Shown one piece after another: positions 4,939 to 35,722 of a stretch of 64,000 bases of DNA. The notes below the pieces were generated by a model. It did no database searches and was not told where the DNA came from. It was given only the letters and a program-made list of their open reading frames with translations. Source of the DNA: a virus. The stretch lies in the IMG/VR virus record IMGVR_UViG_3300033064_003894, positions 64,001 through 128,000 of that record. The stretch is one strand, 5' to 3'. Position numbers and translations under genes: made by a program. The first letter of the stretch is position 1. The number at the start of each line of letters is the position of its first letter.

Positions 4939-5712
4939 GTGGTAACATATTATACCTTTGATAGGGGTAGTTTTTACATGAGGAAGACAAAACTAAAAGG
5001 AGTGATAAGTGACATTCATGTTCCATTTCACGATGTAGCAGCTACTGCTCAAGCTATTGAGTATCTTAAAGATGCCGGAATTGATGAGCTAACGCTTCTT
5101 GGAGATATCTGCGATTTTATGGCAGTGAGCAGGTTTAGCCGTTCTCTTGAAAGAAGGGCTGGACTTAAATATGAATTAGACTCAACTATAGAGTTCTTGG
5201 ACGTTGTAAGGCAGACATTCAAAAAAATAAAAATAAATTATGTATGCGGAAACCACGAAGAGCGATGGGAAAAATATCTTATGGATAAGAGCCCAGAGCT
5301 CATAGGTTTAGAAGGAATGACAATACAAGAAAAGCTTAGGCTAAAGGACTTTAATATACAGTGGCATGAGACAAAATATATAGACAATGACATGGTATTT
5401 TATCATGGAGTCGGGCGCTCGTCAGGTGACGCAGGAGGTAGCGTAAAGCTTTGGCTTAACCACTTTATGACATCAGTAATAATTGGACACGTGCATAAGC
5501 AAGCAGTTCTGTACAAAAGAACTGGCACTGGAAGGGTTTTAGTAGGAATAGAAAACCCAACTCTTAGCCAGCTTGACCCAGAGTATGAGCCGACAGGAAC
5601 AAGCAACTGGCAGCAGGGAGGAACAGTATTATTAATGGATTACGCTAACAACGTAAATATACCCTATCCATTCCAAATATGTAATGGGAAACTGTACGCA
5701 TCAAAATTTTAA
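4939..5712 (+). CDS. calcineurin-like metallophosphoesterase; likely start ATG 4978
   Basis: SDIH, GDICD, GNHE, HG, GHVH motifs. Confidence 0.9.
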   Translation: MVTYYTFDRGSFYMRKTKLKGVISDIHVPFHDVAATAQAIEYLKDAGIDELTLLGDICDFMAVSRFSRSLERRAGLKYELDSTIEFLDVVRQTFKKIKINYVCGNHEERWEKYLMDKSPELIGLEGMTIQEKLRLKDFNIQWHETKYIDNDMVFYHGVGRSSGDAGGSVKLWLNHFMTSVIIGHVHKQAVLYKRTGTGRVLVGIENPTLSQLDPEYEPTGTSNWQQGGTVLLMDYANNVNIPYPFQICNGKLYASKF

Positions 5713-6514
5713 AAAAAAATATATTAAAGGTACGTATTACACATTTTTGAGATGTCACCAGGTCTAAGAGGTCCCACTCCACTTCAATTTCACCTCGCAG
5801 AGTTTCTACGATCGACGACGTCGACGTGTACATGCATTCGAAAATCGAAAATGTGGATCCGGATAAACTTGTGGGTTAACTCCACTGCTCGTGTAGAGCT
5901 CACGTGTACCGACTTTCTGTAAGTCGAAGTGAATTCCTATTCCTTACTTTTAAGTAAGTGATAGATGAAAAGGTATCCTTTTCAAAGAAATAATACGGGT
6001 TTTTATAAGTTACTTTTTTTTCTTTAATAATCTCAATTAATTAGATACTCTCTTTTGAACTAGCTATACTTTCCGACATTTACCGAAAACGCTAAACCTA
6101 CGCGCGTCGCCTGGCCCTGCAGGTTTCGAGGAGAGGACATTCTCTACCCACCCCATCTGGATTAATTTTTGATTAAAGTGAAAGTTACAAATGCCTGCCA
6201 GGCGTGGGTCGCGACGGCGGGTTTAAATTATCCGGGCCCGCCGGCGCCTTTGTAAATGAAAATTTACCTGTCTTCACTTTTAGTGAAGTGACCATTGTTA
6301 TGGAATCCACAACCGAAATTGAGCTAGCTATAACTTATGTTGCATACTCTTTTTTCAACCTGCATAAGTTTATTTTCACCTTTATGGCTAAAGGTTTGTA
6401 GGTTAACTTCTTAACCACACATCTAAGGTTCTTAAGGAATCCTTAAGATGATTGCAACATTGCTTTATACCCAGAATGAATTCTTTTTTTAGTTTTATAT
6501 GATATAATTAGATC
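5713..6514. other. palindrome-dense non-coding region (natural polylinker-like array plus gapped dyads)
   Basis: Largest intergenic gap; many distinct 6-8-bp palindromes and at least seven gapped inverted repeats read directly from the sequence. Confidence 0.8.
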
Positions 6515-9500
6515 ATGAGGCTTGAAAAATTCAAAGCTCACGTAGAGAAAGCAATAAGTGACTCTTTGACAGACATTTCTGTCGGTTCAGGTCAAAAAAT
6601 AAGCTTTACGGGAGTATCTATGCCAGATGCTAAATATGGCATCTCTGAAGAGATTAAGGCAAAGATGACCGGATCTTCTTATGGAATACCTGTAAGGGCC
6701 TCATTTGAGACTTTAGATGAAGAGACGGGAGAGAAAGAAAAAAAGACGGTTCAAATATTTAAATTGCCAATGAGGACAAACCGTGGCACGTTTATTTGGA
6801 ATGGTAACGAGGTAAACATTAAGAATCAATATAGGAGAAGGCCGGGAGTGTACACATATTACTCTCAGGCTGATGGAGGACTATATTCTTCTAATTTTAA
6901 TATGTCAAAGGGTAGAGCCAAATTCTCTAAGAAGGTTAGGGTAGTAATTAACCCGGAAACTCTTAAATACGAGCTTAGACTTGGTGGATCAAAATTTGAA
7001 ATATATCCAATATTAAGAGCATACGGAATGTCAGACTCTGAGATAAGTGGAATTATGGGGAAAGATCTATATGACGCAAACTATATAGATGATTATGAAA
7101 AGGTTATAAGAAAGCTAGCCAAGTTTAGGACCGGGAAAGAGTACAAGAATATAGATGACGCATCTAAAGATATTGTTTCAGAGTTTTCAGAGATATCATT
7201 TGATGGAGGTATTAATGAATACACTCTTGGAAAGGATTTCTCGTCTATAAACAAAGACTTTTGGGGCAAGGTTATCGTTAAGCTAAGAGACGTGGCTGCT
7301 GGCAAGAAAGATCCGGACGATCCAGATGCTTCTTATTTCAGAGAATATCTTGAGCCAGAAGACAACATAATTGAGGCGATAAACAGCACTGCTGCGTCAA
7401 TATCTTCTAAAATAAAACAGAGAAGGGGGAAGTCCAATATAGGTAGAATACTTCAAAATATTAATTTTGATAAAGAAGTAAATAACCTTTTCACTACTGG
7501 GTCTTTGAAGGACATAAGAGATCAGTCTAATCCTGTTGACTGGTACACAGGTCTTGACTCCTTAACAATTTACGGACCTGGAGGGATAAGTGGGGCTCTT
7601 AGTGTGACAGAAGGAATGAGGCGTCTTCAGCCAACGCTGCTTGGATTTTCTGACCCAGTAAATACTCCTGACGACGGAGATAAGGTTGGAGTTGTTCTAT
7701 ACAAGACGACTGGAGCTGTAATAAAAGACAGGAAACCTCATATTAAAGTTAAGGACAAGAGCGGAAAGACCGTGGTGCTTCCAATTATAGACTTCTATCA
7801 CCAAAAAATAGGAATTGGCGATTACTCTCAAAAAGGAAAAATAGACTTAATATTTAAAGGGTCGGCTACGACAGGACTGTCTACTGACGTTAAGTACTTC
7901 ATACCAGAAGAATATCTTTTTAGCCACACTTCGAATCTTATACCAATGATAAGCTCAACGTATGGAGTTAGAGCAAACGTAGCCTCAAAGCAGATGGGTC
8001 AAGCTCTGCCTCTAAAGGACGCGGAAGAGGCCTTTGTCCAATCTGAATATGCAAAAAACAAAAAGGCAAAGTATCTTCAGGAGGGGCTAGATATGGACGA
8101 ATACGGAAATGTTAGGTCTGTATCAAACGGAGTTGTTGACTCTGTAAGTAAGACTTCAGGAAAGATCACAATAAGGATGGATGATGGAAAGAAGGTTACT
8201 CATGATGTACCAACGCACTATCCACTTAATTCAGAAAGCTTCTCTCATAACAATATAGTAGTGTCATCTGGTGACGAGGTTAAGAAGGGTCAAGTCATCG
8301 CAGAGTCTATATTTAGTAGAAATGGTGGGCTGGCAATAGGGAAGAACTTGAGAACGGCATTCCTGCCATATAAAGGATATAATTTTGAAGATGGCTTTGT
8401 GATAAGTGAAGGCGCGTCACAAAAGATGACGTCTCTTCATATGCACAAGTTTGAGGTATCTCTTGGTGGAGGGGTAAGGGCAGGGAAGAGACTGTATGTA
8501 TCTGTATTTCCAAATAAAGCGGCTCTAATAAAGCTAGACAACTATGATGATAGCGGTTCATTGAAAGAGGGCGCGTTGGTTTCATATGGGGCACCAGTAA
8601 TACTTGCGATTGAGAACAGGGACCTTACTCCTCAGCAGGCAACTATTGCGTCATTTAACAAAACAATGGCTAGTCTCATACAACCAAAAGACGTAAGCCC
8701 TATATACGAGGTTGAGTTCCCATCTAAGGTGGTTAGGGCTTATAAGGACAATAAAAGAATTATTGTGATGATCGAAAGCGAAGAGCCAATGGTTGAAGGC
8801 GATAAAATTGCTACAAGGTATGGAGGTAAAGGGATTGTTACAAAAATAGTTCCAGATGCATTAATGCCGGCATCGGAATCTGGCGAACCTGTAGAGGTTT
8901 TGTTTAATCCGCATGGTCTTCCGAGCCGGCTTAACTCGTCTCAGATTGTGGAGAATGCTCTTGGTAAGGTGTCAGAAAAGACAGGGAAGAAGTTCTTCAT
9001 ACCTGGGTTCTCAAAAGAGAGTTTTATTGATATAGCTAAGAGGGAGCTGTCTGCTGCTGGTCTATCTGATGAGGAGACCTTAATTGACCCTGAAACTGGA
9101 AAGCGTCTAGATAGGGTAGGCGTAGGAAATATGTATTACATGAAACTTAAGCATAGCGTAAGAAAGAAGCTTAAGTCTGGAGACGTAGGAGAATATGACA
9201 CAATTTTTGAGCAGCCAAAGAAGACCGAAAGAAACACAGCGAGAGGAATAGATGGACTGTCTCTTTATTCTCTGCTAGCTTCTGGGGCAAGGGCAAACCT
9301 TGCAGACATGGCGTCAGTTAAAGCAAATAGAAACGATGAGTTCTGGCGTGCCCTTCAGATGGGCATGCCTACGCCGTCACCAAAAGATCTCACAACAACT
9401 AAATATTTTACGTCTCTTTTGACTGGAATTGGGTTAAACGTAAATAAAACAAAGGATTTTCTGTCTATATACCCAGCGACAGACTCAGATATTGAGAGGA

Positions 9501-12500
9501 GAAGTGGAGGAGAAATAAGAGAAGCAAAGTTTATAAGAAGTAGAGACCTTAAGCCAGAAGACGGAGGATTTTACGACCCTTCAATTACTGGTGGCGCAAG
9601 AGGAGAAAAGTGGTCACACATATCTATTGGAACAACCATTCCTAATCCAATATTTGAAGAGCCTATTAAGGCTGTACTTGGCCTTAACAAGGATAAGTAT
9701 ACAGGTATTATGTCAGGAAAGTATAAAGTAAATGAAGCCGGAGATATAGATGATGATGGCAAGTATTCAGGAGGATTGGCCATTAAACATATGCTTGACA
9801 TTGTTGATGTCAACGCAGAAATAGACTCAATAAGGATAGAGAGCAAGCGTTATGTTGACGAAAAAAACTGGTCTGGCTTAAATCAAGCAAACCGGAAAAT
9901 AAGAATTCTTCTGAACGCTAAAAATCTAGGAAAGCCTCTTGGATCATTGTATACCATATCTAAGATCCCTGTATTGCCTCCAAGATTTAGGCAGATGATT
10001 ATGCTTAGTGATGGGACAATTCAAAACCCGCCAATTAATGAACTATACAGCGCCATAAAGCTTGAGGCTGATGGACTTAATACAGTACGTGACATTGGTA
10101 TAGATACAGAGGAAGAGGTAGTCAAGAGGGGCAATTCTATATATAAGCATGTATCTGCCGCATTCGGCGTGTCAGATCCTGTCTCGTTTGCTCTAAGGAT
10201 GAGAGCTATTGACGGAGGCATATTAAGACAAATTTCTCCTACCGACAAGCAAATGAAGGAAGGTTTTATTGGGAAAAGAATGCTTAACAAGCCTCAGTCT
10301 TTGAGTGGAGGCTCAACAATTATTTCAGATCCGGAGCTTCCTATGGATGAAGTTGGAGTTCCTTATGAGATGGCGAAGCAGATAATGAAGCCATTTACGA
10401 TACGCAAGATGGTTCAGTCTGGTTATACTCCTCTTAATGCCATTAAGGAAATAGAGGGGGACTCTCAAATGGCTCGTATTAAACTTGAAGAGGTTGTAAA
10501 GGAGAGACCTGTTCTAGTAAATAGGCATCCATCTCTACATAAGTTCAACTTCATGTCTCAGTGGGCAAAGATTGTCCCAGGAAGCGCTATTAGGCTTAAC
10601 CCGCTCGTTACTGGCGGGCTGAATGCAGATTTCGACGGGGACTCAATGATAGGAGATATAACGATTGCGTGTAAGTCAATGGCTGGTGTTGACCCGTCTG
10701 GAGGAGTAATAGACCATTCGTATTCAAGCATTGATATTGGAGATTTCCCAAGAAATGGAATAAAAGAAACAAAGAAAAACAAAACAGTATACTTCGTTCC
10801 TCCTGGGATATACGTTCCATCTGTATCTAAAGACGGAGTTCCTGAACTAATGAGGGTTACTGAATACCACGAGCACGATAACTGTGAGGAGTATATAGTA
10901 AAGCTTCATAATGGACACACGATTACTGTAAGTGGAGATCACAGTCTTACGTACTTCAACCCTGAAACGGCAGAGTTTGATAAGGTGTCTCCTGAAAACG
11001 CCTCGCATTTAGTTATTCCTAGGCTTGTTAAATTCAAGTCTACAACAGGTGCCAAGTTCCCAGAGGTCATTGAAAGAGGCGTGGCTAGGTCAGAAATAAT
11101 TTCAACCATTGGATTTTTCTGTGCAATCCTTAGGTTTAACCCAAGGTTAAGAAGCTACTCCTTTGCAAGGCACGCGTTGCTTGAAGAGCGCGTAGACATA
11201 ATCTCCAAATATTATGGTGCAGGGATAGATAAAGGAATATTTGTATGTCGCTTTATAAGTGATTGGATCTCTAAATACATTAACTGCTCAGATGAGCCAA
11301 GAATTCCATCTTACATATTGAGTATAAACGACGATGACCGCGCGGCTTTTGTATCAGGACTGCTTCAGGGTTCATCACTTATCTCCAAAAAAGACGGTCG
11401 CGGAGACATCTTTGAATGTTTTAAAGTAAAGAACTATCTTGGAGACATGGAGATTTTATTTAGGTCAGTTGGCATAGACGCCAATACCTTTATGCAAAAG
11501 AATCAGAATAAGAGAACTCCAGTATATTTTACAATTAATGCATCTACTGGAGACATGAGAAACTTTGTGCTTGACAATCCTGGACTGTTTTCCACACAAT
11601 TCATGGACAGATTTTATAAAACAAAAATATCTGAGATACCGGCAAAGTGTGTGAGTTCTGACATAATGCCTGTGCCGGTATGGATTTCGACGTACATAAG
11701 GTACACGGTTAAGGATAGGATTGACAACGAATCATTCAACAAAATGGTTTACAATGCATACAAGGATGTTCCATACGAGAAGTGGGTCGAGTCTGGAAGT
11801 GAAGTGTGGAACAGAAGAGTTATTAAGTTTTTCTTGGACAAAATGTCTGACGAAGAGATAGCAGGGATACCAGAAAACTTCCGAAGACTTGTGTATAATG
11901 AATCTATACGTTGGGAGCTAGTTGAGAGTGTAACTAAAACTGGACGAAAGATTAGAATGTATGACCTGACAGTTGAAGAAAACAAAAACTTTGTTGACTC
12001 AAAAGGGTATCTTGTGTGGGACACGATGAACATACATGCACCTGTTTCTGATAGAGCAGTGGTTGAGGCAGCGACAAAGCTTCTACCTAGCAAATTTCTT
12101 TATGGACCAGATAGGCATATTCTTCCAATGCCAAGTAACGAGTCAATTCTTGGCATATACATGTTATCTAAGAAGACTCTTAAGGATTCAGGAGAATCCT
12201 ATTCAAGCCTGGATAAAGCAGAGGGAGACTTCCTTAGCAATAAACTAAATATGAATGACTATATTAAGCTTAATGGCAAGAAGACAACCCTTGGAGGTGA
12301 GATTTTGGTGTCTGCCGTTAAGGAAAAGTTTAAAGATAAACTTCGAGCGTCAGACATAGATAAAAAGTATCTGCAATCTTTAGTTACTGAAATATATAAG
12401 GAGTCTCCTGAAGACGCAGCAGAGGCACTTAACAAGCTCAAAGACATTGGATATAAATATTCATATTTATATGGATTTAGCATATCACTTAATGACTTTG

Positions 12501-13909
12501 ATGCTCCTAACGATTTGAGGTCATATACAAAGGGGGTTATGGATTCTTTAGGTGACGACAATAAGAACTCTGAGAAGATGGATATTAAGCTTAGGGGGGC
12601 AGAGACGAAATTCCATAAGTTCTTTGATGACAATAGGCTCATGCAAATGTCCAGATCTGGCGCTAAAGGAAGCTGGAGCAATATTGCTCAAATGCTTCTT
12701 GCCCCTGGATATATGGAAGGAGCCGGAGGAATGATAGGAGAGAATCCAGTAAAGACAGGATATGCAGAGGGCATGTCTCCGTCTGATTATCTTAATACAT
12801 TATATGCAGCAAGAAGCGGCATTGTCAGTAAAGTTAGAGGTGTGGCCAAAGGAGGAGAGCTTGCGAAGAGCGAGGTTCACACAGCTATAGAAATTGTGAT
12901 AACAGAAAAAGACTGCGGAACGATTAATGGAATATACATGGACAGAGACGATAAGTTTATTGTTGGCAGGTTTGACGTAAGAGCTAAAGAGATAGATGAA
13001 CAGTACCTGTCTTCACATAAAGGTAAGCAGATAAAAGTGAGAAGTCCGTTGACATGCGAATCAATAAAAGGACTCTGCTCTATTTGCTACGGAATAAATG
13101 ACCAAGGCGTTATGCCTAAAGTTGGAGATCACGTTGGAATTGATGCTGCTCAAAGTACAACTGAGAGAATCACACAAAGCTTACTTCGAGCATTCCACGG
13201 AGGACGAGGAGCAAAAGAAAAGGGGACGACTGACCTAGCTAAAAACCTTCACAATTTGTTCGGAAAAATGCCGAAAACGTTTTCTGGAGAAGCCCCTGTA
13301 TCTATAGAGCCTGGAGTCGTAAAAAGAATTAATAAATCTCCTGCTGGAGGGTGGGATATATACGTTGACAATGAAAGATATAGAACCAGTGTTGAGGTTG
13401 ACCCCATAGTTTCTGTTGGAGACTCTGTGTCTCGTGGTCAAAAGCTAACTACAGGAATGGAGAATCCTCGTTCAATACTAAGAACTGGAGGATTAATTGG
13501 TGCTCGTCGCTTCATAACTGGTAAAATGAGAGAGATGTATAAGGGAACAGGAGTAGACATGAATCCAGTCCATTTTGAGGTTGTAACTAGGGGATTGACA
13601 GAGCACGCTCGCGTCATAGACCCAGGAGAGAGTCAGTATGAGTATGGAGATATTGACACAATAGCAACAATTGAACACAAAATTAAAAACGGAGAAAAGG
13701 TAAGATATGAACCAATTATGGCTGGAGCAGACAGGATACCTATCTATAGAAAAGATTTCTTATCTCAATCTGCAAGGCGAGAAGGTAAGAGGGGGATTAT
13801 TGAGTCAGCAGCCTCAGGAGCAAAATCAGAGTTGCATGGCGTAAATCCATTAAACTCCTGGATGCTAGGAGAGTTTAGGCCGACTATAGGTGATGGTGGA
13901 GTATACTAA
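6515..13909 (+). CDS. rpoBC: multi-subunit-type DNA-directed RNA polymerase, beta-beta' fusion, with intein
   Basis: beta motifs GYNFEDG, GDKIATRYGGKG, NPHGLPSRLN, YYMKLKH (to ~9442); beta' motifs PVLPPRFR, NRHPSLH, NADFDGD, SGAKGS, DCGT, VRSPLTC..C..CYG, trigger-loop AAQSTTERITQSLLRAFH. Confidence 0.95.
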   Translation: MRLEKFKAHVEKAISDSLTDISVGSGQKISFTGVSMPDAKYGISEEIKAKMTGSSYGIPVRASFETLDEETGEKEKKTVQIFKLPMRTNRGTFIWNGNEVNIKNQYRRRPGVYTYYSQADGGLYSSNFNMSKGRAKFSKKVRVVINPETLKYELRLGGSKFEIYPILRAYGMSDSEISGIMGKDLYDANYIDDYEKVIRKLAKFRTGKEYKNIDDASKDIVSEFSEISFDGGINEYTLGKDFSSINKDFWGKVIVKLRDVAAGKKDPDDPDASYFREYLEPEDNIIEAINSTAASISSKIKQRRGKSNIGRILQNINFDKEVNNLFTTGSLKDIRDQSNPVDWYTGLDSLTIYGPGGISGALSVTEGMRRLQPTLLGFSDPVNTPDDGDKVGVVLYKTTGAVIKDRKPHIKVKDKSGKTVVLPIIDFYHQKIGIGDYSQKGKIDLIFKGSATTGLSTDVKYFIPEEYLFSHTSNLIPMISSTYGVRANVASKQMGQALPLKDAEEAFVQSEYAKNKKAKYLQEGLDMDEYGNVRSVSNGVVDSVSKTSGKITIRMDDGKKVTHDVPTHYPLNSESFSHNNIVVSSGDEVKKGQVIAESIFSRNGGLAIGKNLRTAFLPYKGYNFEDGFVISEGASQKMTSLHMHKFEVSLGGGVRAGKRLYVSVFPNKAALIKLDNYDDSGSLKEGALVSYGAPVILAIENRDLTPQQATIASFNKTMASLIQPKDVSPIYEVEFPSKVVRAYKDNKRIIVMIESEEPMVEGDKIATRYGGKGIVTKIVPDALMPASESGEPVEVLFNPHGLPSRLNSSQIVENALGKVSEKTGKKFFIPGFSKESFIDIAKRELSAAGLSDEETLIDPETGKRLDRVGVGNMYYMKLKHSVRKKLKSGDVGEYDTIFEQPKKTERNTARGIDGLSLYSLLASGARANLADMASVKANRNDEFWRALQMGMPTPSPKDLTTTKYFTSLLTGIGLNVNKTKDFLSIYPATDSDIERRSGGEIREAKFIRSRDLKPEDGGFYDPSITGGARGEKWSHISIGTTIPNPIFEEPIKAVLGLNKDKYTGIMSGKYKVNEAGDIDDDGKYSGGLAIKHMLDIVDVNAEIDSIRIESKRYVDEKNWSGLNQANRKIRILLNAKNLGKPLGSLYTISKIPVLPPRFRQMIMLSDGTIQNPPINELYSAIKLEADGLNTVRDIGIDTEEEVVKRGNSIYKHVSAAFGVSDPVSFALRMRAIDGGILRQISPTDKQMKEGFIGKRMLNKPQSLSGGSTIISDPELPMDEVGVPYEMAKQIMKPFTIRKMVQSGYTPLNAIKEIEGDSQMARIKLEEVVKERPVLVNRHPSLHKFNFMSQWAKIVPGSAIRLNPLVTGGLNADFDGDSMIGDITIACKSMAGVDPSGGVIDHSYSSIDIGDFPRNGIKETKKNKTVYFVPPGIYVPSVSKDGVPELMRVTEYHEHDNCEEYIVKLHNGHTITVSGDHSLTYFNPETAEFDKVSPENASHLVIPRLVKFKSTTGAKFPEVIERGVARSEIISTIGFFCAILRFNPRLRSYSFARHALLEERVDIISKYYGAGIDKGIFVCRFISDWISKYINCSDEPRIPSYILSINDDDRAAFVSGLLQGSSLISKKDGRGDIFECFKVKNYLGDMEILFRSVGIDANTFMQKNQNKRTPVYFTINASTGDMRNFVLDNPGLFSTQFMDRFYKTKISEIPAKCVSSDIMPVPVWISTYIRYTVKDRIDNESFNKMVYNAYKDVPYEKWVESGSEVWNRRVIKFFLDKMSDEEIAGIPENFRRLVYNESIRWELVESVTKTGRKIRMYDLTVEENKNFVDSKGYLVWDTMNIHAPVSDRAVVEAATKLLPSKFLYGPDRHILPMPSNESILGIYMLSKKTLKDSGESYSSLDKAEGDFLSNKLNMNDYIKLNGKKTTLGGEILVSAVKEKFKDKLRASDIDKKYLQSLVTEIYKESPEDAAEALNKLKDIGYKYSYLYGFSISLNDFDAPNDLRSYTKGVMDSLGDDNKNSEKMDIKLRGAETKFHKFFDDNRLMQMSRSGAKGSWSNIAQMLLAPGYMEGAGGMIGENPVKTGYAEGMSPSDYLNTLYAARSGIVSKVRGVAKGGELAKSEVHTAIEIVITEKDCGTINGIYMDRDDKFIVGRFDVRAKEIDEQYLSSHKGKQIKVRSPLTCESIKGLCSICYGINDQGVMPKVGDHVGIDAAQSTTERITQSLLRAFHGGRGAKEKGTTDLAKNLHNLFGKMPKTFSGEAPVSIEPGVVKRINKSPAGGWDIYVDNERYRTSVEVDPIVSVGDSVSRGQKLTTGMENPRSILRTGGLIGARRFITGKMREMYKGTGVDMNPVHFEVVTRGLTEHARVIDPGESQYEYGDIDTIATIEHKIKNGEKVRYEPIMAGADRIPIYRKDFLSQSARREGKRGIIESAASGAKSELHGVNPLNSWMLGEFRPTIGDGGVY
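10643..12022 (+). mobile_element. intein (460 aa) in RNAP beta' directly after NADFDGD; Ser1...Trp-Asp/Thr+1; degenerate LAGLIDADG region
   Basis: Removal restores NADFDGD-TMNIH (cf. NADFDGDQMAVH); block B TVSGDHSL; block F MYDLTVEENKNF. Confidence 0.88.
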
Positions 13910-14933: not shown

Positions 14934-15277
14934 ATGCATCTACTAGAGAGAGAGTGTTCGAGAGAGCATATTGGAGGTGTGAAATGTGTCATTCTCTTGG
15001 TAAGCCCTATAACCAATTAGAGATACACCATATCGTAACCAAGGCAAGAGGTGTTGGGTGGACCTTCCTTAATCATGAGCTAAACCTATGTCTTCTATGT
15101 CACGGGTGTCACATGAATGTCCATAAGCAGGGGATAAAGCAGTGGCTATCTAAACGACCTCCAGACGTTTGCTATCAATGTGATCAGGTTCTGGTTCCGC
15201 TTGAAGACAGTCGTGGGGTTGGGTGCCAAGAATGTAAAGAGGTACTTTTTCAGACTGTTCATTCTTCTTTATTATAA
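14915..15277 (+). CDS. HNH endonuclease
   Basis: RERVFER..RCEMC, EIHHIV, NLCLLCHGCH. Confidence 0.85.
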   Translation: MWKMPIDASTRERVFERAYWRCEMCHSLGKPYNQLEIHHIVTKARGVGWTFLNHELNLCLLCHGCHMNVHKQGIKQWLSKRPPDVCYQCDQVLVPLEDSRGVGCQECKEVLFQTVHSSLL

Positions 15278-16412
15278 ATCTTGTGATAGCTGCGAGTATT
15301 TTTGTGTTAGGATGTATGCCGCATAAATTTATTAAATCAGGTATATATTTTGAAAATCTAGATACGCTGTGCACATCGGAAGAAAGGATATAAACAATTC
15401 GTCCAGAAACAACATTTGAGAATTCGAAAGAGTCTCCGCTGTATAAGTTATTTATCTCTCTTAGCGCCATAGCTCTTGTTTTATCTATATAAGCTTTAGT
15501 GCATTTTATTCTAACCGTAGTGTTTAATCCTAGCACTGGTTCTTTCCTATTTAGCTCTGACTTAAATATTCTTGTTTTCTTGCCGTTAACAACAAGTTTA
15601 TACCTATATGAAAGTTTACATATTGAATTAATTAGTATTTCTACAAAGTCATCGATGAACTTAAAGTCATTGTAGAAAATCTTGATGTAAATGTTATCAA
15701 TGTATCGTATGTAATTTATTGAAAGCTTTTTTGGATACTCAAACTTATTGTCAATTCTACGTAGACGATCAAAAAGTCGACTTTTAATAGAAGCTGAAAT
15801 GTACTCTCCGGAAGTTAGTGAATATTGGGAGTGCATAGCCTTTGGACACGATGACTTCTTACTAATCTTCTCTCCATTTATTGTTATTTGAGTATCAGAA
15901 GTAGAAGCTTCTAGTCTAGACAGACAAGACAGTATTATGCAGTCAAAGCCTTGAAGGTATATATTGCTAATGTCTTGAGACATAGCGCTGCCCTGTGAAA
16001 GAACTCTAACGTCGTTCCCTACAAAAACAAACGCATTGTCGACAAAAGTGATTAAATTTTTGTGTTTAGAGGCGAAGCAGTCATAAAAGATTGAGTGATA
16101 AAAATTTTTAAAGTCAAGTCCTATAAGTACACTTTTATCTCCTTCATCAACCGGGCTTCGTTTTGTTATCAAAGACAAGACCAGAGCCTTCATATTTGTT
16201 CCACCAAAAGGATATCCAAAAACAGACTTCTTTAAATTAACACTCGTGTTATGTAATGAGTCGGAGCCATCGAAGATAAATCCTCTAAGCGCCCACAGTT
16301 TTTCATAATGGTCGTTCGTTGTACCAAAGTCGTGAACTAATCGGAAAGAGCTTTTATCTTTTTTTGGTATAAGAACGGCTCTAGGTAATACTCTTTTTGA
16401 GCCTTCTTGCAT
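15150..16412 (-). CDS. retron-like reverse transcriptase with non-canonical YIDN active site
   Basis: IPKKDKSSFRLV, LDFKNFYHSI, LSQGSAMSQDISN, YIRYIDN (YIDN at 15693-15704), NGKKTR, VLG. Confidence 0.85.
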   Translation of the reverse strand: MQEGSKRVLPRAVLIPKKDKSSFRLVHDFGTTNDHYEKLWALRGFIFDGSDSLHNTSVNLKKSVFGYPFGGTNMKALVLSLITKRSPVDEGDKSVLIGLDFKNFYHSIFYDCFASKHKNLITFVDNAFVFVGNDVRVLSQGSAMSQDISNIYLQGFDCIILSCLSRLEASTSDTQITINGEKISKKSSCPKAMHSQYSLTSGEYISASIKSRLFDRLRRIDNKFEYPKKLSINYIRYIDNIYIKIFYNDFKFIDDFVEILINSICKLSYRYKLVVNGKKTRIFKSELNRKEPVLGLNTTVRIKCTKAYIDKTRAMALREINNLYSGDSFEFSNVVSGRIVYILSSDVHSVSRFSKYIPDLINLCGIHPNTKILAAITRFIIKKNEQSEKVPLYILGTQPHDCLQAEPEPDHIDSKRLEVV

Positions 16413-27519: not shown

Positions 27520-27594
27520 TGGAGCCCCCTCCCAGAATCGAACTGAGCTATCTAGTTTACAAAACTAGGGCATCGCCAACAATGCTTAAGGGGC
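27520..27594 (-). tRNA. tRNA-Thr(TGT)
   Basis: Cloverleaf; anticodon arm CTAGT-TT TGT AA-ACTAG; encoded CCA. Confidence 0.9.
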
Positions 27595-27595
27595 G

Positions 27596-27685
27596 TGGCG
27601 GAGGAGGAGGGAGTCGAACCCCCATTACGCTATGACACGTTTAGCCGATTTCAAGTCGGTGTGCTACGCCAGTTGCCGCTCCTCC
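27596..27685 (-). tRNA. tRNA-Ser(TGA)
   Basis: Loop CT TGA AA, long variable arm, G73, CCA; D-arm atypical. Confidence 0.82.
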
Positions 27686-27691
27686 GAACCG

Positions 27692-28525
27692 TTATTGTAT
27701 CAAAGTTCCAGACTTTACAACAAAACTTTCTTTTTCTAAAGATATCTTTTTATATGGATCAAATCTTCGTCCCTCTCCAATTGCGTGTATACCTACTGGG
27801 TTATTCGTAAGTAATGTAGTCAGGTGTGCAGTGTCAACAACTTCATGACTGTGACCATATATGCAGACATCAAAATAATTTAACAGTTCTTCGTTTATGT
27901 CTGCACAGAAAAAAGAGTTGAATCTAGAGTCTGGACCAGTTTTATACATATCATGAGTGCATCTGTAAGATGGCAGGAAATGCGACAAAAGAACCTTATG
28001 TTTATAATTACAAACTTCGTGTTTTCTGAACTGATCAATAGAGTTGCAGGCAATTTGGTGAAGCTCTCTAATTGAAGAAGCTCTAAATCTTGCATTCATG
28101 TATTTTATCTGTCTAAAATCCTGAATTCTAGAAACAATATCATACTCTTGAACTGGGTCTTTAAGTCCAGACCATAAGGTGGTTCCAAAAACAACTATGT
28201 TTTTATCAATAGAGCACGAGCTATTATTTAAAATTTTAATCCTTCCTTTATGGTTGGAAGAATTGAATTTCTTAATAATATGGTTAGTAGGCTCTATTCC
28301 TCTTTTGTAGTATTCGTGGTTTCCTGGGACAAAGATAAGCTTCCTGTATTTGTATTTCTTCTGAATGCTCTCTATGTACGGTATGCTTACTTTTATATCA
28401 TTTGAGACGTCTCCGACTACAGCTAAAATGTCGGCAGATTTCTCGATAGAGAAGTCTCGCCGCTTTTTTCCTATAAACTCATTGTAGTCAACGTGAATAT
28501 CAGAGATGTATTGGATGTCAGTCAT
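27692..28525 (-). CDS. calcineurin-like metallophosphoesterase
   Basis: ISDIH, VGD, PGNHE, HFLP, YGHSH; start moved to ATG 28525 because the longer ORF overlaps a tRNA. Confidence 0.9.
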   Translation of the reverse strand: MTDIQYISDIHVDYNEFIGKKRRDFSIEKSADILAVVGDVSNDIKVSIPYIESIQKKYKYRKLIFVPGNHEYYKRGIEPTNHIIKKFNSSNHKGRIKILNNSSCSIDKNIVVFGTTLWSGLKDPVQEYDIVSRIQDFRQIKYMNARFRASSIRELHQIACNSIDQFRKHEVCNYKHKVLLSHFLPSYRCTHDMYKTGPDSRFNSFFCADINEELLNYFDVCIYGHSHEVVDTAHLTTLLTNNPVGIHAIGEGRRFDPYKKISLEKESFVVKSGTLIQ

Positions 28526-28531
28526 GATTGA

Positions 28532-28608
28532 TGGTAGTGGAGGACGGAGTCGAACCGACACTGTCAGGCTCCTAAAGCCTGTTTCTCTTCCATTTGGAAT
28601 ACTCCACC
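28532..28608 (-). tRNA. tRNA-Leu(TAG), short variable loop
   Basis: CAGGC-TT TAG GA-GCCTG; GGTTCGACTCC; CCA. Confidence 0.85.
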
Positions 28609-28652
28609 ATTGCCAGTTGATTAATTATACCAAATTATATACAATCGTTTAG

Positions 28653-29300
28653 ATGAAAGAGTCATTCATACAGATAGGGGCAGGAGCTGGAGATTTAGAC
28701 CCGCGTGCAAATTATAGAGACGGGTTCACTGAAACTGTGAAAGGTATTCCACGAGACAAAATCGATAAAATAATTTTAGTTGAACCAAATCCAATAAATA
28801 TTCCACTTCTGAAAGAGTGCTGGAAAGAGTATCCAGAGGCGGAAATTTATGAGATCGGGATAGTCCCAAAAGAATTTGGAGACAAAAACCTTATACTATA
28901 TTATTGCCCAAGCGACGCCCCTCATTATCAGGTTGCGTCTATAAAAAAGGAGCATGTTAAAAAGCATTATGGAGAGAATTGTACACTAAAGGAATTCACT
29001 ATAAAGACAAGGCACCTTGAAGAGTTCATTTCTGAAGCCGCCGGGTCCGCAAGTATTGGAATATTAGCTCTTGATATAGAAGGAATTGATGCTGAAGTTG
29101 TTCTAGAAATGAAATTTGGGTTCAATTTGAGATATCTATCATTTGAGGACACACACCTTGGAAATGACAAAGAGCGCGTAATTAAGCACTTATGTGATAG
29201 TGGTTTCAGGTATTCTGGCACTGGCCTTGACCACAGAGGGTTAGATTCTTTATATGTTAATGAAAAGTGTGATAAGAAAAATTTGCTTATAATACGATAA
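28653..29300 (+). CDS. FkbM-family methyltransferase
   Basis: FIQIGAGAGD, ILVEPNP, LALDIEGID. Confidence 0.85.
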   Translation: MKESFIQIGAGAGDLDPRANYRDGFTETVKGIPRDKIDKIILVEPNPINIPLLKECWKEYPEAEIYEIGIVPKEFGDKNLILYYCPSDAPHYQVASIKKEHVKKHYGENCTLKEFTIKTRHLEEFISEAAGSASIGILALDIEGIDAEVVLEMKFGFNLRYLSFEDTHLGNDKERVIKHLCDSGFRYSGTGLDHRGLDSLYVNEKCDKKNLLIIR

Positions 29301-29339
29301 ATTTGTGGATTGTTAGTTATTAAATAGTAAACTGCTTCT

Positions 29340-29903
29340 ATGAGGTTCACAAACAACTGGTTTGACTGCAGCGCGAATAATTTTATTAAGTTCCTGTCGC
29401 CACATAAAGGTGAGCCTGGTATTAAATATTTAGAAATAGGGTCTTATGAGGGCAGGAGCGCTCTAAGCATTGCTGATCATATACTTACTGGATTAGGTAG
29501 TGAGATTCATTGCGTAGACACATTTGAAGGTTCAATCGAGCACACAGAAAAACAAAAGGATTCTCTATATGATAGGTTTATGAATAACCTAAAAGGCTCA
29601 GGCATTAAAAACGTTACTGTTCACAAGATGACTAGTAGAGAGTACTGGATGAACAATAATGAGATGTTCGATTTTATATATATAGATGGAGACCACAATT
29701 CGTGTACAGTAATAGAGGACGCAATGTGTGCATGGCAGAGAATAAAGCCAGGAGGCGTAATAGCGTTTCATGATTACGAAGGAGGCGGCGAGCCAATATG
29801 CACACCAAAGCCAGCGATTGATTTCTTTTTGCTGTCACATTATGGCAAGTATGATTTGCTGCTGAAGGGATACCAGGTTTGGGTAAGAAGGAAAATTCTA
29901 TAG
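29340..29903 (+). CDS. class I SAM methyltransferase (Methyltransf_24-like)
   Basis: YLEIGSYEGRS, CVDTF, FDFIYIDGDH, KPGGVIAFHDY. Confidence 0.9.
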   Translation: MRFTNNWFDCSANNFIKFLSPHKGEPGIKYLEIGSYEGRSALSIADHILTGLGSEIHCVDTFEGSIEHTEKQKDSLYDRFMNNLKGSGIKNVTVHKMTSREYWMNNNEMFDFIYIDGDHNSCTVIEDAMCAWQRIKPGGVIAFHDYEGGGEPICTPKPAIDFFLLSHYGKYDLLLKGYQVWVRRKIL

Positions 29904-30314
29904 GTCTATAAAGACAACGTCTTTGCCTTGATTAAGGCTAATATTAAGAATCTTGTAAGCTCTATGTCGATTGCGTCTATTTATAAAGACAACAACAGAA
30001 AGGTTAAGTAAAATGGAAGAGAATGGCTCATAATGAGAAGGAGCTGTTGGTGGCCTTATCTTAAAAAGTGTGAAATGTTTGTTGCAGGAGTGTTTTACCA
30101 CAAAAAATCTTAAACTGTAGGCATTTAATAGTTCTTTATATGAACTGGCATAGACAAATATGTCGCACTGTGACATGAGGATTCTGTATGATAAAACCAT
30201 ATTATGGTTTCTTTCTGAACATGCTTCGCCAAGTCCTGTAATAAGACGAATTCCTTTATTACAGACGTTGAAATCATGGAGATATTTTAGTAGAGTGGCA
30301 GTCATTATTTTCAT
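29898..30314 (-). CDS. hypothetical protein
   Basis: 138-aa ORF, no motif. Confidence 0.4.
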   Translation of the reverse strand: MKIMTATLLKYLHDFNVCNKGIRLITGLGEACSERNHNMVLSYRILMSQCDIFVYASSYKELLNAYSLRFFVVKHSCNKHFTLFKIRPPTAPSHYEPFSSILLNLSVVVFINRRNRHRAYKILNISLNQGKDVVFIDL

Positions 30315-30344
30315 TCGAAGTTACGAAAAATAATAGATATATTT

Positions 30345-30932
30345 TTATATAGGCAGACTATTTCTGTATACAGAGTCAGTCGTAAAGTGATCAATGTTTA
30401 CGCAAAGTCTGTTTCTGCACGTAAGGTATATAAATCTGTATTTCTTTCTATTGTCCCACCAGTTAAACTTTTCAGCAACAGCATGACGAACAGGTCCGTT
30501 TCTTATTGCTTTAGCTGTGCAAGATGGAGACCCATGTGTAAGGCTTCCAGTCCAAATAAGACATTTGCCATCTTTCTTTGTATGTCTTTTCATCATATCT
30601 TCGAACGACATAACTTTTAAATGTCGTCCGTCTATCTTTTCTATCTCAAGAGCCTTCTTCTTTTGATAATAAGCCCTATCATTTCTCTTTTTAGCATAGG
30701 ATTCTCTGCACTCAGGACAAAGCCTAAGATTTCTCCTATTAAATGATGCGCTCGTATACTTCTTTTTGCACCCGATTGTTGTACAGTCATGATATGAAAT
30801 AAGTTCAGAACCTTTTTCTTTGTTGTTTGTGCAAACAATACACAAGTCATCTTCTACAATATATCTAGTTAGTCGGCATCCTTCGCAATATCCAATTTTA
30901 AGATCTGGCTTGACTTCAAGTTCTTCGGTCAT
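30345..30932 (-). CDS. Cys-rich protein with HNH-like zinc-binding loop
   Basis: CLIWTGS...TCRNRLCVNIDHF; several N-terminal CxxC. Confidence 0.6.
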   Translation of the reverse strand: MTEELEVKPDLKIGYCEGCRLTRYIVEDDLCIVCTNNKEKGSELISYHDCTTIGCKKKYTSASFNRRNLRLCPECRESYAKKRNDRAYYQKKKALEIEKIDGRHLKVMSFEDMMKRHTKKDGKCLIWTGSLTHGSPSCTAKAIRNGPVRHAVAEKFNWWDNRKKYRFIYLTCRNRLCVNIDHFTTDSVYRNSLPI

Positions 30933-30948
30933 GATTTCTTATTGTTGG

Positions 30949-31024
30949 TGGTATGTGGGCCGGGACTCGAACCCGGACTAAGAGATTCAAAATATCTGGT
31001 GCTGACCAATTACACTACTCACAT
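30949..31024 (-). tRNA. tRNA-Gln(TTG)
   Basis: Loop TT TTG AA; CCGGG-TTCGAGT-CCCGG; CCA; one mismatch each in acceptor and anticodon stems. Confidence 0.78.
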
Positions 31025-31038
31025 TTAGTTTGGTAAGG

Positions 31039-31116
31039 TGGTAGGGGTGGTCGGATTCGAACCGACACTGTACGAATCTTAAGTTCGTTGCCTGCTGCCA
31101 ATTGGGCTACACCCCC
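31039..31116 (-). tRNA. tRNA-Leu(TAA), short variable loop
   Basis: ACGAA-CT TAA GA-TTCGT; CCA. Confidence 0.88.
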
Positions 31117-31122
31117 AGTAAA

Positions 31123-31419
31123 CTAAGCCCTCTTCTTTAAACCACTATATGTATCTTTATTTATATATCTAACCATCTCGTTCCAAAGGATAATTCTTAA
31201 TGTTTGATCTCTCATAACGCCTCCAGTCTCAGAATTAGTCCAAGGAGTTTCATCAAATGGTTTAGCAGGTTTACGTATTAATGACCAGTAACGATTAGTA
31301 TAAACTAAATTTTTCATTAATATCCTTTTATATGTTACTTCTACTTCAATTTCGAGTAAAGATGACGTTTCCCCTACAGAAGCCTTAGTTACTTTAGTTA
31401 CTTTATAAGACGTCTTCAT
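31123..31419 (-). CDS. hypothetical protein
   Basis: 98-aa ORF coupled (ATGA) to nadV. Confidence 0.55.
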   Translation of the reverse strand: MKTSYKVTKVTKASVGETSSLLEIEVEVTYKRILMKNLVYTNRYWSLIRKPAKPFDETPWTNSETGGVMRDQTLRIILWNEMVRYINKDTYSGLKKRA

Positions 31420-32801: not shown

Positions 32802-32806
32802 CGAAC

Positions 32807-33724: not shown

Positions 33725-33726
33725 GA

Positions 33727-33996
33727 TTATCTATTTTTAATTAGTTTAGCAATCAAGATTGGCCAAAATATGACTAATATGATTTCTTTTCTCATTCCAG
33801 ACTCATATATTCTCTCTTCTTCTCCTTCATCATTAATAACTTTCTTTGTTACTCTGGAGTCCACATCAAATAAGAAATTGAGACTTACATTAAAAATCAT
33901 TCCTAGTGCAATATAAACAATCAAAATCAGAAGTAGGGTTGCCATTTTGTATGGGTTGGTATTGGTTGGTATTGGCACACGGTTAAGTACGCCCAA
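33727..33996 (-). CDS. small membrane protein
   Basis: Two hydrophobic segments, IFWPIL. Confidence 0.55.
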   Translation of the reverse strand: MGVLNRVPIPTNTNPYKMATLLLILIVYIALGMIFNVSLNFLFDVDSRVTKKVINDEGEEERIYESGMRKEIILVIFWPILIAKLIKNR

Positions 33997-33999
33997 TGC

Positions 34000-34626: not shown

Positions 34627-34632
34627 GTTACC

Positions 34633-34662
34633 TCAAATTACTGTAATCATGTGTACCTCCTT
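34633..34662 (-). promoter_or_regulatory. strong Shine-Dalgarno plus 5-codon uORF MITVI*
   Basis: AAGGAGGT-ACAC-ATG ATT ACA GTA ATT TGA-GGTAAC-ATG. Confidence 0.55.
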
Positions 34663-34795
34663 TGTTTGAGTTAATGGAAAGCGGGACGGATTTTGTTCCA
34701 GGCTCCGTCCCTATTTTACCTTCTTCTTGACCAGCACTAAAATTGACTGAGAGATTGGTGGGGGAGGTGGGACTTGAACCCACGACCAACGAATT

Positions 34796-35245: not shown

Positions 35246-35407
35246 ATGAGTTCGCTGCTCTAAACCAACTGAGCTACACCCCCATTTTTATTTAAGGGAA
35301 TGGCACGGGGTTTATCCGTAATTATTAGCCTACTTGGTTTGATTTTTCTAGAATATTACAAACGGTTCGCTATCTAACTGATTATCTAGTAATCACGCAT
35401 TCTTTTT

Positions 35408-35485
35408 TGGTACTCACATGTGGATTTGAACCACAGACATCCACCTTATCAGGATGGCGCTCTTACCGGGCTGAGCTATGTGAGT
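35408..35485 (-). tRNA. tRNA-Ile(GAT)
   Basis: CCATC-CT GAT AA-GGTGG; CCA. Confidence 0.92.
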
Positions 35486-35496
35486 TTGTTTTAAAA

Positions 35497-35607: not shown

Positions 35608-35617
35608 CTGCTCTGGA

Positions 35618-35718: not shown

Positions 35719-35722
35719 ATTG

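What the first reader, a model, noticed from the sequence alone, without database searches (positions are those of the whole stretch)
5809..5936. Natural polylinker: twelve different 6-bp palindromes in 128 bp
Seen, in order: CGATCG 5809, GACGTC 5817, GTCGAC 5820, TGTACA 5827, ATGCAT 5832, TTCGAA 5837, GGATCC 5855, TCCGGA 5858, GTTAAC 5875, GAGCTC 5896, CACGTG 5901, GAATTC 5931. All differ and many overlap. About 2 are expected at uniform composition (128/64). Established: these are the PvuI, AatII, SalI, BsrGI, NsiI, BstBI, BamHI, BspEI, HpaI, SacI, PmlI and EcoRI sites. Inference: a non-coding library of type II R-M sites could be a decoy or sponge, a sensor of host methylation or restriction state upstream of the RNA polymerase gene, or a deliberately cleavable locus that triggers RecA-dependent replication. 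An origin, a packaging site or a structured RNA are alternatives. I know of no described phage element like this.
Basis: partly seen in the sequence, partly recalled or inferred. Interest (0 to 1): 0.85.

Follow-up and report, generated by a model that had tools for sequence, protein, structure and literature searches.

The report
Heritable hexamer-palindrome islands upstream of phage RNAP
A gene-free spacer in front of an uncultured phage's RNA polymerase gene is packed with short perfect DNA palindromes, and its closest relatives keep the same density at the same place although the sequence is unalignable, so the symmetry is being maintained for a reason not yet known.

Summary
All 12 hexamer palindromes lie at the stated positions, against about 2.2 expected, and this is the densest 128 bp in the 139.8-kb contig.

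- **Extent:** the cluster is part of a wider feature. The whole 802-bp ORF-free gap (5713-6514) between a metallophosphoesterase gene and a fused beta-beta' RNA polymerase gene holds 35 palindromes against 13.9 expected. These include five GC-rich 8-mers in a second island.
- **Not an artefact:** a second contig carries the identical gap, and no vector match was found.
- **Not general:** the 11 other ORF-free gaps of the genome show no excess.
- **Form of the excess:** it is strictly unspaced, strictly Watson-Crick, capped at 6 bp and indifferent to the word used.
- **Relatives:** the gaps of the two closest relatives are also enriched (32 vs 13.4; 20 vs 11.9) without alignable sequence. Together with the window they form one well-supported clade. 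Five more distant relatives have hairpins at this locus but no palindrome excess.

My best reading (about 0.35) is a selection-maintained panel of duplex-DNA dyad words, most plausibly read by type IIP restriction-modification-like proteins. A local template-switch mutational by-product is nearly as likely (0.3). The sponge and cleavable-locus ideas are disfavoured. This scan earlier reported a similar palindrome-packed hypervariable spacer in an unrelated bacterium (e1-1201608).

The parts
4939..5712 (+). Upstream flanking gene: calcineurin-like metallophosphoesterase (257 aa)
   Evidence: Pfam Metallophos_2 and PHROG 221. Homologues at 50-62% identity sit in the same position in L004, L010, L005, L006 and L007.
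5713..6514 (.). ORF-free spacer: the whole palindrome-rich and hairpin-rich feature
   Evidence: 35 hexamer palindromes against 13.9 +/- 3.4 expected, and 11 octamers against 3.7. 11 perfect hairpins against 1.6. It is the top region of the genome for both measures. It is identical in a second contig except for an A9/A10 run at 5711-5719.
5745..5945 (.). GC-rich island 1 (about 46% GC, flanks 22-33%)
   Evidence: Composition profile. 12 palindromes against 2.8 expected. RNA folding no better than shuffles on either strand.
5809..5936 (.). The reported cluster: 12 different hexamer palindromes in 128 bp
5910..5983 (+). Three short perfect or near-perfect hairpins closing island 1 (5910-5926, 5937-5964, 5967-5983). 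The last carries the conserved AAGG-N3-CCTT core at 5970-5980.
   Evidence: Sequence, the repeat finder pair I6, motif census.
5965..6070 (+). AT-rich stretch with three sigma-70-like promoter matches pointing towards island 2 and the RNAP gene
   Evidence: These are consensus matches only: 7 were found in the scanned region against 3.2 +/- 2.1 in shuffles, which is not significant.
6095..6260 (.). GC-rich island 2 (about 54% GC) with five GC-rich 8-bp palindromes
   Evidence: five 8-mers against 0.83 expected (P=0.0005), and 8 hexamers against 3.1. Weak folding signal, z -2.1 on the + strand.
6252..6288 (+). Two short hairpins closing island 2 (6252-6267, 6272-6288)
   Evidence: Sequence.
6430..6448 (+). 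9-bp-arm dyad carrying the conserved AAGG-AAT-CCTT core, about 70 bp before the RNAP start
   Evidence: the repeat finder pair I13. The core recurs in the gaps of L010, L007 and L009; a GGAG/CTCC variant occurs in L005 and L006.
6515..13909 (+). Downstream flanking gene: single-chain beta-beta' RNA polymerase with an intein (2464 aa)
   Evidence: Pfam Rpb2_6, Rpb1_2, Rpb1_3, Rpb1_4, Rpb1_5 and Intein_splicing. Relatives at 44-60% identity.

Best explanation
The cluster is the densest part of an inherited, locus-specific sequence property. In one clade of uncultured phages, the gene-free spacer between the metallophosphoesterase and RNA polymerase genes contains GC-rich islands, each closed by short hairpins. 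The window and L010 have two such islands each. Perfect, unspaced 6-bp dyads are kept there at about 2.5 times expectation while the actual sequence turns over completely.

I read the dyads as words on duplex DNA kept by purifying selection, not as RNA stems.

Inference: the readers are two-fold symmetric DNA enzymes. The only known class that collectively reads arbitrary unspaced hexamer palindromes is the type IIP restriction-modification proteins (methyltransferases and endonucleases).

Inference: the islands would then display a panel of such words next to the promoter region of the polymerase gene. Whichever words the current host binds or methylates would alter events at that locus, for example read-through into the polymerase gene.

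The locus does not work as a titrating sponge or a unique cut site.
For: - **Real and reproducible:** 12 against 2.2 locally, and 35 against 13.9 in the gap. A second contig carries the identical gap.
- **Locus-specific:** the 11 other ORF-free gaps of the genome hold 41 against 48.5 expected.
- **Inherited as a property, not a sequence:** the L010 gap has 32 against 13.4 (0 of 500 shuffles), 29 distinct words and up to 10 in 128 bp. The L004 gap has 20 against 11.9 (P=0.02). The gaps are not alignable.
- **Clade mapping:** window, L010 and L004 form a clade with 100/99 support. The five relatives outside it with DNA in hand show no excess.
- **Spacer 0 only:** z is 6.0 (window) and 5.2 (L010) at spacer 0. 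Other spacers give z of 2.5 or less in the window; L010 has one at z 3.1 and the rest at 1.4 or less.
- **Capped at 6 bp:** the 4-to-6 extension rate is 0.49 and 0.48 against 0.26 in the genome (P=3e-5 and 9e-5). The 6-to-8 rate is at background.
- **Watson-Crick only:** one-mismatch hexamers, including G:T, are at background.
- **No trail of decayed palindromes in the window:** the one-mismatch excess is -8.8 +/- 9.4, against +27.7 predicted by neutral decay.
- **No confounding pattern:** no purine-pyrimidine alternation bias (3 of 12, read from the sequence) and no helical periodicity.
Against: - No reader protein, methylation or cleavage has been shown, and the host is unknown.
- Most words are common elsewhere in the genome, so it is unclear what an extra copy adds.
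- Odd or interrupted sites (spacer 1, and 4-6) and 4-mers on their own are not enriched, although many restriction-modification systems use them.
- L010 shows some excess of one-mismatch words (+14 +/- 7 in its islands), so the selection argument is clear only for the window.
- Only three lineages carry the trait.
- Hairpins with loops are also enriched at this locus in every relative. A general dyad-generating process is therefore not excluded.
Confidence: 0.35

Rival explanations
1. Mutational by-product. The spacer is a fast-evolving, hairpin-rich control region. Short-range template switching, or processing of hairpin-capped breaks, keeps creating perfect inverted copies there. The palindromes are neutral debris that persists because nothing in the spacer is constrained.
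For: - Perfect hairpins (stem of 6 or more, loop 0-6) are enriched in the homologous gap of all eight loci tested, with P of 0.012 or less.
- Template switching is documented to create and perfect inverted repeats (PMC7202029, PMC8794818, PMC13100816).
- L010 islands show a modest excess of one-mismatch words.
- An earlier follow-up in this scan reached this reading for a similar spacer (e1-1201608).
Against: - The excess is confined to spacer 0 and stops at 6 bp, whereas the looped dyads in the same gap have arms of 6-13 bp.
- No other non-coding gap of the genome is affected.
- The distant relatives have the hairpins without the palindromes.
- The window has no trail of decayed palindromes, a 3.9 sd shortfall against the neutral-decay prediction.
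Confidence: 0.3
2. RNA-level function. Each island is the body of a small RNA or leader of about 200 nt. The self-complementary hexamers act as weak homotypic pairing sites for dimerisation or multivalent RNA-RNA networking, as in retroviral dimer-initiation palindromes.
For: - The islands have a module-like layout. In L010 each island is followed by the same 43-nt terminator-like plus hairpin element, 98% identical.
- L010 island A and the L005 block fold better than shuffles, with z -3.2 and -4.4.
- A cap at 6 nt would suit weak reversible pairing.
Against: - G:U-tolerant near-palindromes are not enriched.
- Palindromes are not preferentially placed in stem-flanked loops: 11% against 7% in the window, and 3% against 6% in L010.
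- Island 1 folds no better than shuffles.
- No Rfam match.
- Transcription has not been shown.
Confidence: 0.1
3. Replication origin or packaging site whose protein-binding dyads give the palindrome excess.
For: It is the longest non-coding region next to a key gene, and it has alternating AT-rich and GC-rich segments and many dyads.
Against: - No iterons or repeated binding words. Every palindrome is essentially a different word.
- The cumulative GC skew has its minimum at 45.3 kb of the contig and does not turn at 69.7 kb.
- No contig ends at the gap.
Confidence: 0.08
4. Chance cluster picked out because a very large scan will contain such outliers.
For: A raw count of 12 or more per 128 bp occurs in 4% of Markov-1 simulated genomes. 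Many windows were scanned.
Against: - Twelve distinct palindromes occurred in 0 of 1000 simulations.
- The remainder of the gap and the second island are independently enriched.
- The homologous gaps of L010 (z about 5) and L004 are enriched.
- 25 control loci reach at most 5-9 per 128 bp.
Confidence: 0.03
5. Artefact: cloning-vector polylinker, synthetic DNA or an assembly chimera.
For: It looks like a multiple cloning site.
Against: - No match to 72,556 plasmid records or 50,697 phage records.
- A second contig of 76 kb is identical over 15.4 kb apart from one homopolymer base.
- The region is flanked on both sides by syntenic phage genes.
- Different, unalignable 'polylinkers' sit at the same locus in related phages from other data sources.
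Confidence: 0.01

Closest known systems
Type IIP restriction-modification recognition sites and their avoidance in phage genomes (PMC6286503)
   Same: The enriched objects are perfect, unspaced palindromes with the excess at 6 bp, the canonical form of type IIP sites. The same genome shows classic avoidance of a few such words: CTCGAG 0 against 23.5 expected, CCCGGG 0 against 7, CCGCGG 0 against 5.7, GCGCGC 1 against 6.7 and CGATCG 2 against 13.6.
   Different: Known biology is depletion of such sites in phages. Here there is a local, heritable enrichment of many different ones. No cognate enzymes are known, and the sites are not unique in the genome.
Quasipalindrome / short-range template-switch mutation hotspots (PMC7202029, PMC8794818, PMC13100816)
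   Same: A replication-error route that makes inverted repeats perfect and can build hairpins in promoters and RNAs. The spacer is also rich in perfect hairpins.
   Different: Those events act on arms separated by a loop and tend to lengthen arms. Here the excess has spacer 0, is capped at 6 bp, occurs at one locus only, and leaves no imperfect relics in the window.
GC clusters of yeast mitochondrial DNA (PMC4478555)
   Same: GC-rich, palindrome-containing islands embedded in AT-rich intergenic spacers.
   Different: Those are multi-copy mobile families with shared sequence. These islands are single-copy and share no sequence with each other or with the islands of relatives.
Synthetic multiple cloning sites
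   Same: A run of different 6-bp restriction sites, some overlapping.
   Different: No vector similarity. The sites are not unique in the replicon. The region is present in independent metagenome assemblies, and in diverged form in related phages.
Palindrome-packed hypervariable spacer reported earlier in this scan (e1-1201608, Elusimicrobia)
   Same: A short intergenic stretch built of perfect palindromes, where a relative keeps the symmetry but not the sequence.
   Different: A different organism and context (between divergent promoters). It has palindromes of 6-20 bp with some in triplicate. Here nearly all words are different and the excess stops at 6 bp. I did not re-examine that locus.
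Retroviral dimer-initiation hexamer palindromes (own knowledge)
   Same: Six-nucleotide self-complementary words.
   Different: Those sit in hairpin loops and act in RNA. Here the words are not loop-embedded and G:U variants are not enriched.

Membership tests
Cloning-vector polylinker / synthetic artefact | Sequence identity to known vectors or constructs | tested here: not met
   No blastn match in the plasmid or phage collections.
Cloning-vector polylinker / synthetic artefact | Confined to one assembly, with junctions to unrelated DNA | tested here: not met
   A second contig is identical over 15.4 kb apart from a 1-nt homopolymer difference. Syntenic genes lie on both sides in relatives. 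Read-level mapping could not be run.
Cloning-vector polylinker / synthetic artefact | Sites unique in the replicon | tested here: not met
   Eleven of the 12 words occur 12-56 times in the contig. Only CGATCG is rare, with 2 copies.
Array of type IIP restriction-modification sites (decoy, sponge, sensor) | Perfect unspaced palindromes of 4-8 bp | tested here: met
   The excess occurs at spacer 0 only, is Watson-Crick only, and peaks at 6 bp.
Array of type IIP restriction-modification sites (decoy, sponge, sensor) | Words correspond to systems of the host | tested here: inconclusive
   The host is unknown. Four of the five words most avoided genome-wide are absent from the gap, and one (CGATCG) is present.
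Array of type IIP restriction-modification sites (decoy, sponge, sensor) | Copy number or uniqueness sufficient to titrate or to be a privileged target | tested here: not met
   The locus is single-copy, and about 2,160 other hexamer palindromes lie in the same genome.
Array of type IIP restriction-modification sites (decoy, sponge, sensor) | Binding, methylation or cleavage at the sites | not testable with these tools
   This needs a methylome or biochemistry. One N6/N4 methyltransferase-like gene exists elsewhere on the contig.
Template-switch (quasipalindrome) hotspot | Inverted repeats able to form hairpins (arms plus loop) | tested here: inconclusive
   Hairpins are enriched at the locus in all relatives. 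The palindrome excess itself has no loop and arms of 3 bp.
Template-switch (quasipalindrome) hotspot | Imperfect relatives or decay products of the repeats alongside the perfect ones | tested here: not met
   Window: one-mismatch excess of -8.8 +/- 9.4 against +27.7 predicted. L010 is ambiguous.
Template-switch (quasipalindrome) hotspot | Reconstructable switch events between close relatives | not testable with these tools
   The only available relatives are either identical or saturated.
Structured non-coding RNA | Folding energy below shuffled controls | tested here: not met
   Island 1 gives z -0.65 (+) and -0.54 (-), and island 2 gives z -2.1 and -1.5. L010 island A gives -3.2 and island B -1.2.
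Structured non-coding RNA | Match to a described family, or covariation | tested here: not met
   No Rfam hit at E of 1 or below. Covariation cannot be tested because the gaps do not align.
Mobile GC-cluster / palindromic repeat family | Multiple related copies in the genome | tested here: not met
   There is a single match in the contig, and no repeat families in the gap beyond 9-17-nt chance pairs.
Replication origin | Iterons or repeated binding words, and a skew turn | tested here: not met

The most novel reading that the evidence does not exclude
A phage clade maintains, by selection, a non-coding display panel of about 20-30 different type IIP-like hexamer words next to the promoter region of its own RNA polymerase gene. 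It would be the first cis-acting DNA element whose function depends on being recognised by whichever restriction-modification proteins the current host carries, for example a switch or bait dependent on methylation or binding. The mirror image of restriction-site avoidance would then be an adaptive trait.
Probability: 0.2. Interest if true: 0.9.

Novelty: new variant of a known kind. Interest (0 to 1): 0.66.

Why it matters
Phages are known to purge short palindromes to escape restriction. This genome does so for a few words, yet it concentrates dozens of other palindromes in one spacer, and the trait has outlived the sequence itself in related phages.

If selection keeps them, there is an undescribed kind of cis-element that is defined by symmetry rather than sequence, possibly a direct interface with host restriction-modification proteins.

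If a local mutational process makes them, the locus is a clean natural example of a site-specific palindrome generator.

Either way it offers a concrete, small and testable target: two islands of about 200 bp in front of an essential phage gene.

Tried and rejected
- **DNA searches:** searches of the gap and the RNAP gene against phage and plasmid records found nothing.
- **Protein-guided scans:** scans of viral contigs with single proteins found nothing. With an alignment they found only distant relatives.
- **N-terminal fragment search:** a search for partial proteins found none.
- **Representative-library search:** it added no closer clade member.
- **Exact 16-mer from the cluster:** it hit 8 unrelated viral contigs by chance.
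- **Coding potential:** rejected. The short ORFs in the islands have no tblastx conservation.
- **tRNA and Rfam:** nothing in the window's gap. L004 has a tRNA-Cys in its gap.
- **Two islands as a template/variable repeat pair:** rejected. The bodies do not align and only the 43-nt 3' element is shared in L010.
- **Z-DNA-type purine-pyrimidine alternation:** rejected. 3 of 12 words alternate, which is the expectation.
- **Helical or codon periodicity of palindrome positions:** none.
- **Kissing-loop placement:** not supported.
- **G:U signal:** a weak hint in window 8-mers only (15 against 7) that is absent in L010.
- **Link to the nearby reverse transcriptase:** no specific association. RT homologues are also present in L003 and L005, which lack the palindromes.
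- **Recurrence upstream of more distant fused RNAP genes:** none.

Full report
**1. What is there**

The window is bases 64,001-128,000 of a 139,837-bp linear viral contig from a metagenome. Its GC content is 40% and its estimated completeness is 79%.

The finding lies in an 802-bp ORF-free spacer, 5713-6514. Upstream is a calcineurin-like metallophosphoesterase gene (4939-5712). Downstream is a 2464-aa single-chain beta-beta' RNA polymerase gene that carries an intein (6515-13909).

All twelve hexamer palindromes are at the stated coordinates.

**2. Is it more than chance?**

Local dinucleotide shuffles give 2.2 +/- 1.4 palindromes, and none of 2000 shuffles reaches 12.

This is the single densest 128-bp window of the contig; the runners-up hold 8-9.

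One caution applies. In Markov-1 simulations of the whole genome, a raw count of 12 or more turns up in 4% of runs, mostly from AT repeats. Twelve different palindromes never occurred in 1000 simulations.

'All different' is not special in itself. Random draws from 64 words behave that way.

Other parts of the spacer show the same excess independently:
- The remainder of the spacer holds 21 against 11.0 expected (P=0.002).
- A second GC-rich island, 6095-6260, has five 8-bp palindromes against 0.83 expected (P=0.0005).
- The whole spacer holds 35 against 13.9.
- The spacer is also the genome's top region for perfect short hairpins, with 11 against 1.6.

**3. Not an artefact**

- The gap has no match in 72,556 plasmid records or 50,697 phage records.
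- A second contig of 76 kb, recorded under a JGI sample, is identical over 15.4 kb including the entire spacer. The only difference is an A9/A10 run at 5711-5719.

**4. Shape of the excess**

- **Locus-specific:** the eleven other ORF-free gaps of the genome together hold 41 palindromes against 48.5 expected.
- **Spacer 0 only:** 3-bp half-sites with spacer 0 give z = 6.0. Spacers 1-8 give z of 2.5 or less.
- **Capped at 6 bp:** the 4-to-6 extension rate is 0.49 against a genome rate of 0.26 (P=3e-5). The 6-to-8 rate (0.31) is at background, and the 8-to-10 rate is below it.
- **Watson-Crick only:** hexamers with one mismatched pair, G:T included, are at background.
- **No decayed relics in the window:** if palindromes were made and then decayed neutrally, the 21.5 surplus perfect words should be accompanied by about 28 surplus one-mismatch words. 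The observed surplus is -8.8 +/- 9.4.
- **No secondary pattern:** there is no purine-pyrimidine alternation bias, no positional periodicity, and no preference for words that are rare or common in the genome.
- **RNA folding:** island 1 is no better than shuffled controls (z -0.65 and -0.54). Island 2 is weak (z -2.1). Rfam and tRNA scans are empty.

**5. Relatives**

The polymerase has relatives at 44-60% identity in other metagenomes.

Synteny is conserved. The order metallophosphoesterase, then a 0.7-1.5-kb ORF-poor spacer, then the polymerase is seen in L004, L005, L006, L007 and L010. A reverse-transcriptase-like gene downstream of the polymerase is seen in L003, L004 and L005.

The spacers are not alignable with one another, at the DNA level or in translation.

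Hairpins are enriched in every one of these spacers, with P of 0.012 or less.

The unspaced-palindrome excess is found only in the closest relatives:

| Locus | Palindromes observed vs expected | Notes |
|---|---|---|
| Window | 35 vs 13.9 | 12 in the densest 128 bp |
| L010 | 32 vs 13.4 | 0 of 500 shuffles; 29 distinct words; up to 10 per 128 bp; 4-to-6 extension 0.48, P=9e-5 |
| L004 | 20 vs 11.9 | P=0.02 |
| L003, L005, L006, L007, L009 | none above expectation | L005 and L009, the two tested by spacer, are enriched at spacers 3, 5 and 7 instead (ordinary 3-nt-loop hairpins) |

A maximum-likelihood tree of the polymerase N-terminus puts window, L010 and L004 in one clade with 100/99 support.

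Twenty-five control loci reach only 5-9 palindromes per 128 bp.

**6. Architecture (partly inferred)**

In L010 the spacer holds two GC-rich islands of up to 64% GC. Each is followed by the same 43-nt element, 98% identical. The element is a weak terminator-like hairpin plus T-run, followed by a 7-bp hairpin with an AAA loop. The island bodies do not align with each other.

L004 has an equivalent 3' element.

The window has two islands, each closed by two or three short hairpins. An AAGG-N3-CCTT hairpin core recurs in the spacers of the window (5970 and 6434), L010, L007 and L009. A GGAG-N3-CTCC variant occurs in L005 and L006. The AAGG core is nearly absent from the rest of the genome, with one other copy.

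Sigma-70-like promoter matches lie between the islands, but their number is not significant.

I therefore treat the spacer as a conserved control region built of 'AT-rich stretch, GC-rich island, hairpins' modules. Transcription of these modules has not been shown.

**7. Interpretation**

- **Chance and artefact** are effectively excluded.
- **RNA structure or RNA self-pairing** is disfavoured. There is no G:U tolerance, no loop placement and no folding signal in island 1.
- **Origin or packaging roles** lack iterons, a skew turn or contig ends at the locus.
- **Titrating sponge or privileged cut site** does not fit. Eleven of the twelve words occur 12-56 times elsewhere. Four of the five words this genome almost completely avoids are missing from the spacer, including all three avoided GC-only words, even though island 2 is dense in other GC-only palindromes. 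Any palindrome matching the host's enzymes therefore seems to be purged here as elsewhere.

Two readings remain.

(a) *Selection on perfect unspaced 6-bp dyads as duplex-DNA words.* The cap at 6 bp, the strict pairing, the locus specificity, the clade inheritance and the missing decay trail favour this. The only known reader class for arbitrary hexamer palindromes is type IIP restriction-modification proteins. I give this 0.35; the mechanistic part is inference.

(b) *A locus-specific mutational generator.* This could be short-range template switching or processing of hairpin ends. It is favoured by the general dyad richness of the locus, by published precedent (PMC7202029, PMC8794818, PMC13100816), and by some one-mismatch surplus in L010. 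I give this 0.3.

**8. Novelty**

I found no description of such an element; a full-text search for 'natural polylinker' returned nothing.

The known rule is avoidance of these sites in phages (PMC6286503).

Yeast mitochondrial GC clusters (PMC4478555) share the GC-island-in-AT-spacer look, but they are multi-copy mobile families.

This scan earlier reported a comparable palindrome-packed hypervariable spacer in an Elusimicrobia bacterium (e1-1201608). The phenomenon may therefore be more general. Here it is quantified as spacer-0, 6-bp-capped and clade-inherited.

Noticed in passing
whole contig (window plus flanks): Near-total avoidance of five hexamer palindromes, observed against Markov-1 expectation: CTCGAG 0 vs 23.5, CCCGGG 0 vs 7.0, CCGCGG 0 vs 5.7, GCGCGC 1 vs 6.7, CGATCG 2 vs 13.6. 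This is a likely footprint of the host's restriction systems.
   Followed up: partly
window 5970-5980 and 6434-6444; L010 1254 and 1548; L007 2507 and 2672; L009 2883; L005 3339, 3527 and 3698; L006 1844: A small hairpin with a 3-nt A/T-rich loop (AAGG-N3-CCTT, or GGAG-N3-CTCC) recurs in the RNAP-upstream spacer of nearly all relatives. The AAGG form has only one other copy in this genome and the GGAG form two. It is a candidate conserved regulatory element, such as a promoter, terminator or protein site.
   Followed up: partly
L010 1225-1267 and 1519-1561: A 43-nt direct repeat, 98% identical, follows each GC-rich island although the island bodies are unalignable. It consists of a terminator-like hairpin plus T-run and a second hairpin.
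   Followed up: partly
window 6515-13909: Single-chain beta-beta' RNA polymerase with an intein of about 400 aa inside the beta' part. Relatives carry zero to several inteins or LAGLIDADG inserts, and their lengths range from 2458 to 3173 aa.
   Followed up: no
window 15150-16412 (-): A divergent reverse-transcriptase-like gene. It scores below Pfam's cut-off for RVT_1 and gives weak PADLOC RT hits. Homologues at 29-36% identity sit in the same position downstream of the polymerase in L003, L004 and L005.
   Followed up: partly
window 27520-39818 (-): Fifteen tRNA genes, all on the minus strand, in several small clusters.
   Followed up: no
L004 3309-3380 (-): A tRNA-Cys gene sits inside the homologous spacer of this relative. 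Other relatives carry small ORFs of 66-114 aa there, so the spacer also behaves as a variable cargo site.
   Followed up: no
window 5711-5719: A9 against A10 homopolymer difference is the only difference between the two contigs over 15.4 kb.
   Followed up: yes
contig 132272-132586 (-), outside the window: One N6/N4 DNA methyltransferase-like gene (open frame of 485 aa). No C5 or D12-class methyltransferase was found.
   Followed up: no
L005 3560-3660: In this more distant relative, the block that corresponds to the islands is a well-folding multi-stem element (z -4.4). This suggests a structured RNA at the locus in the sister clade.
   Followed up: partly
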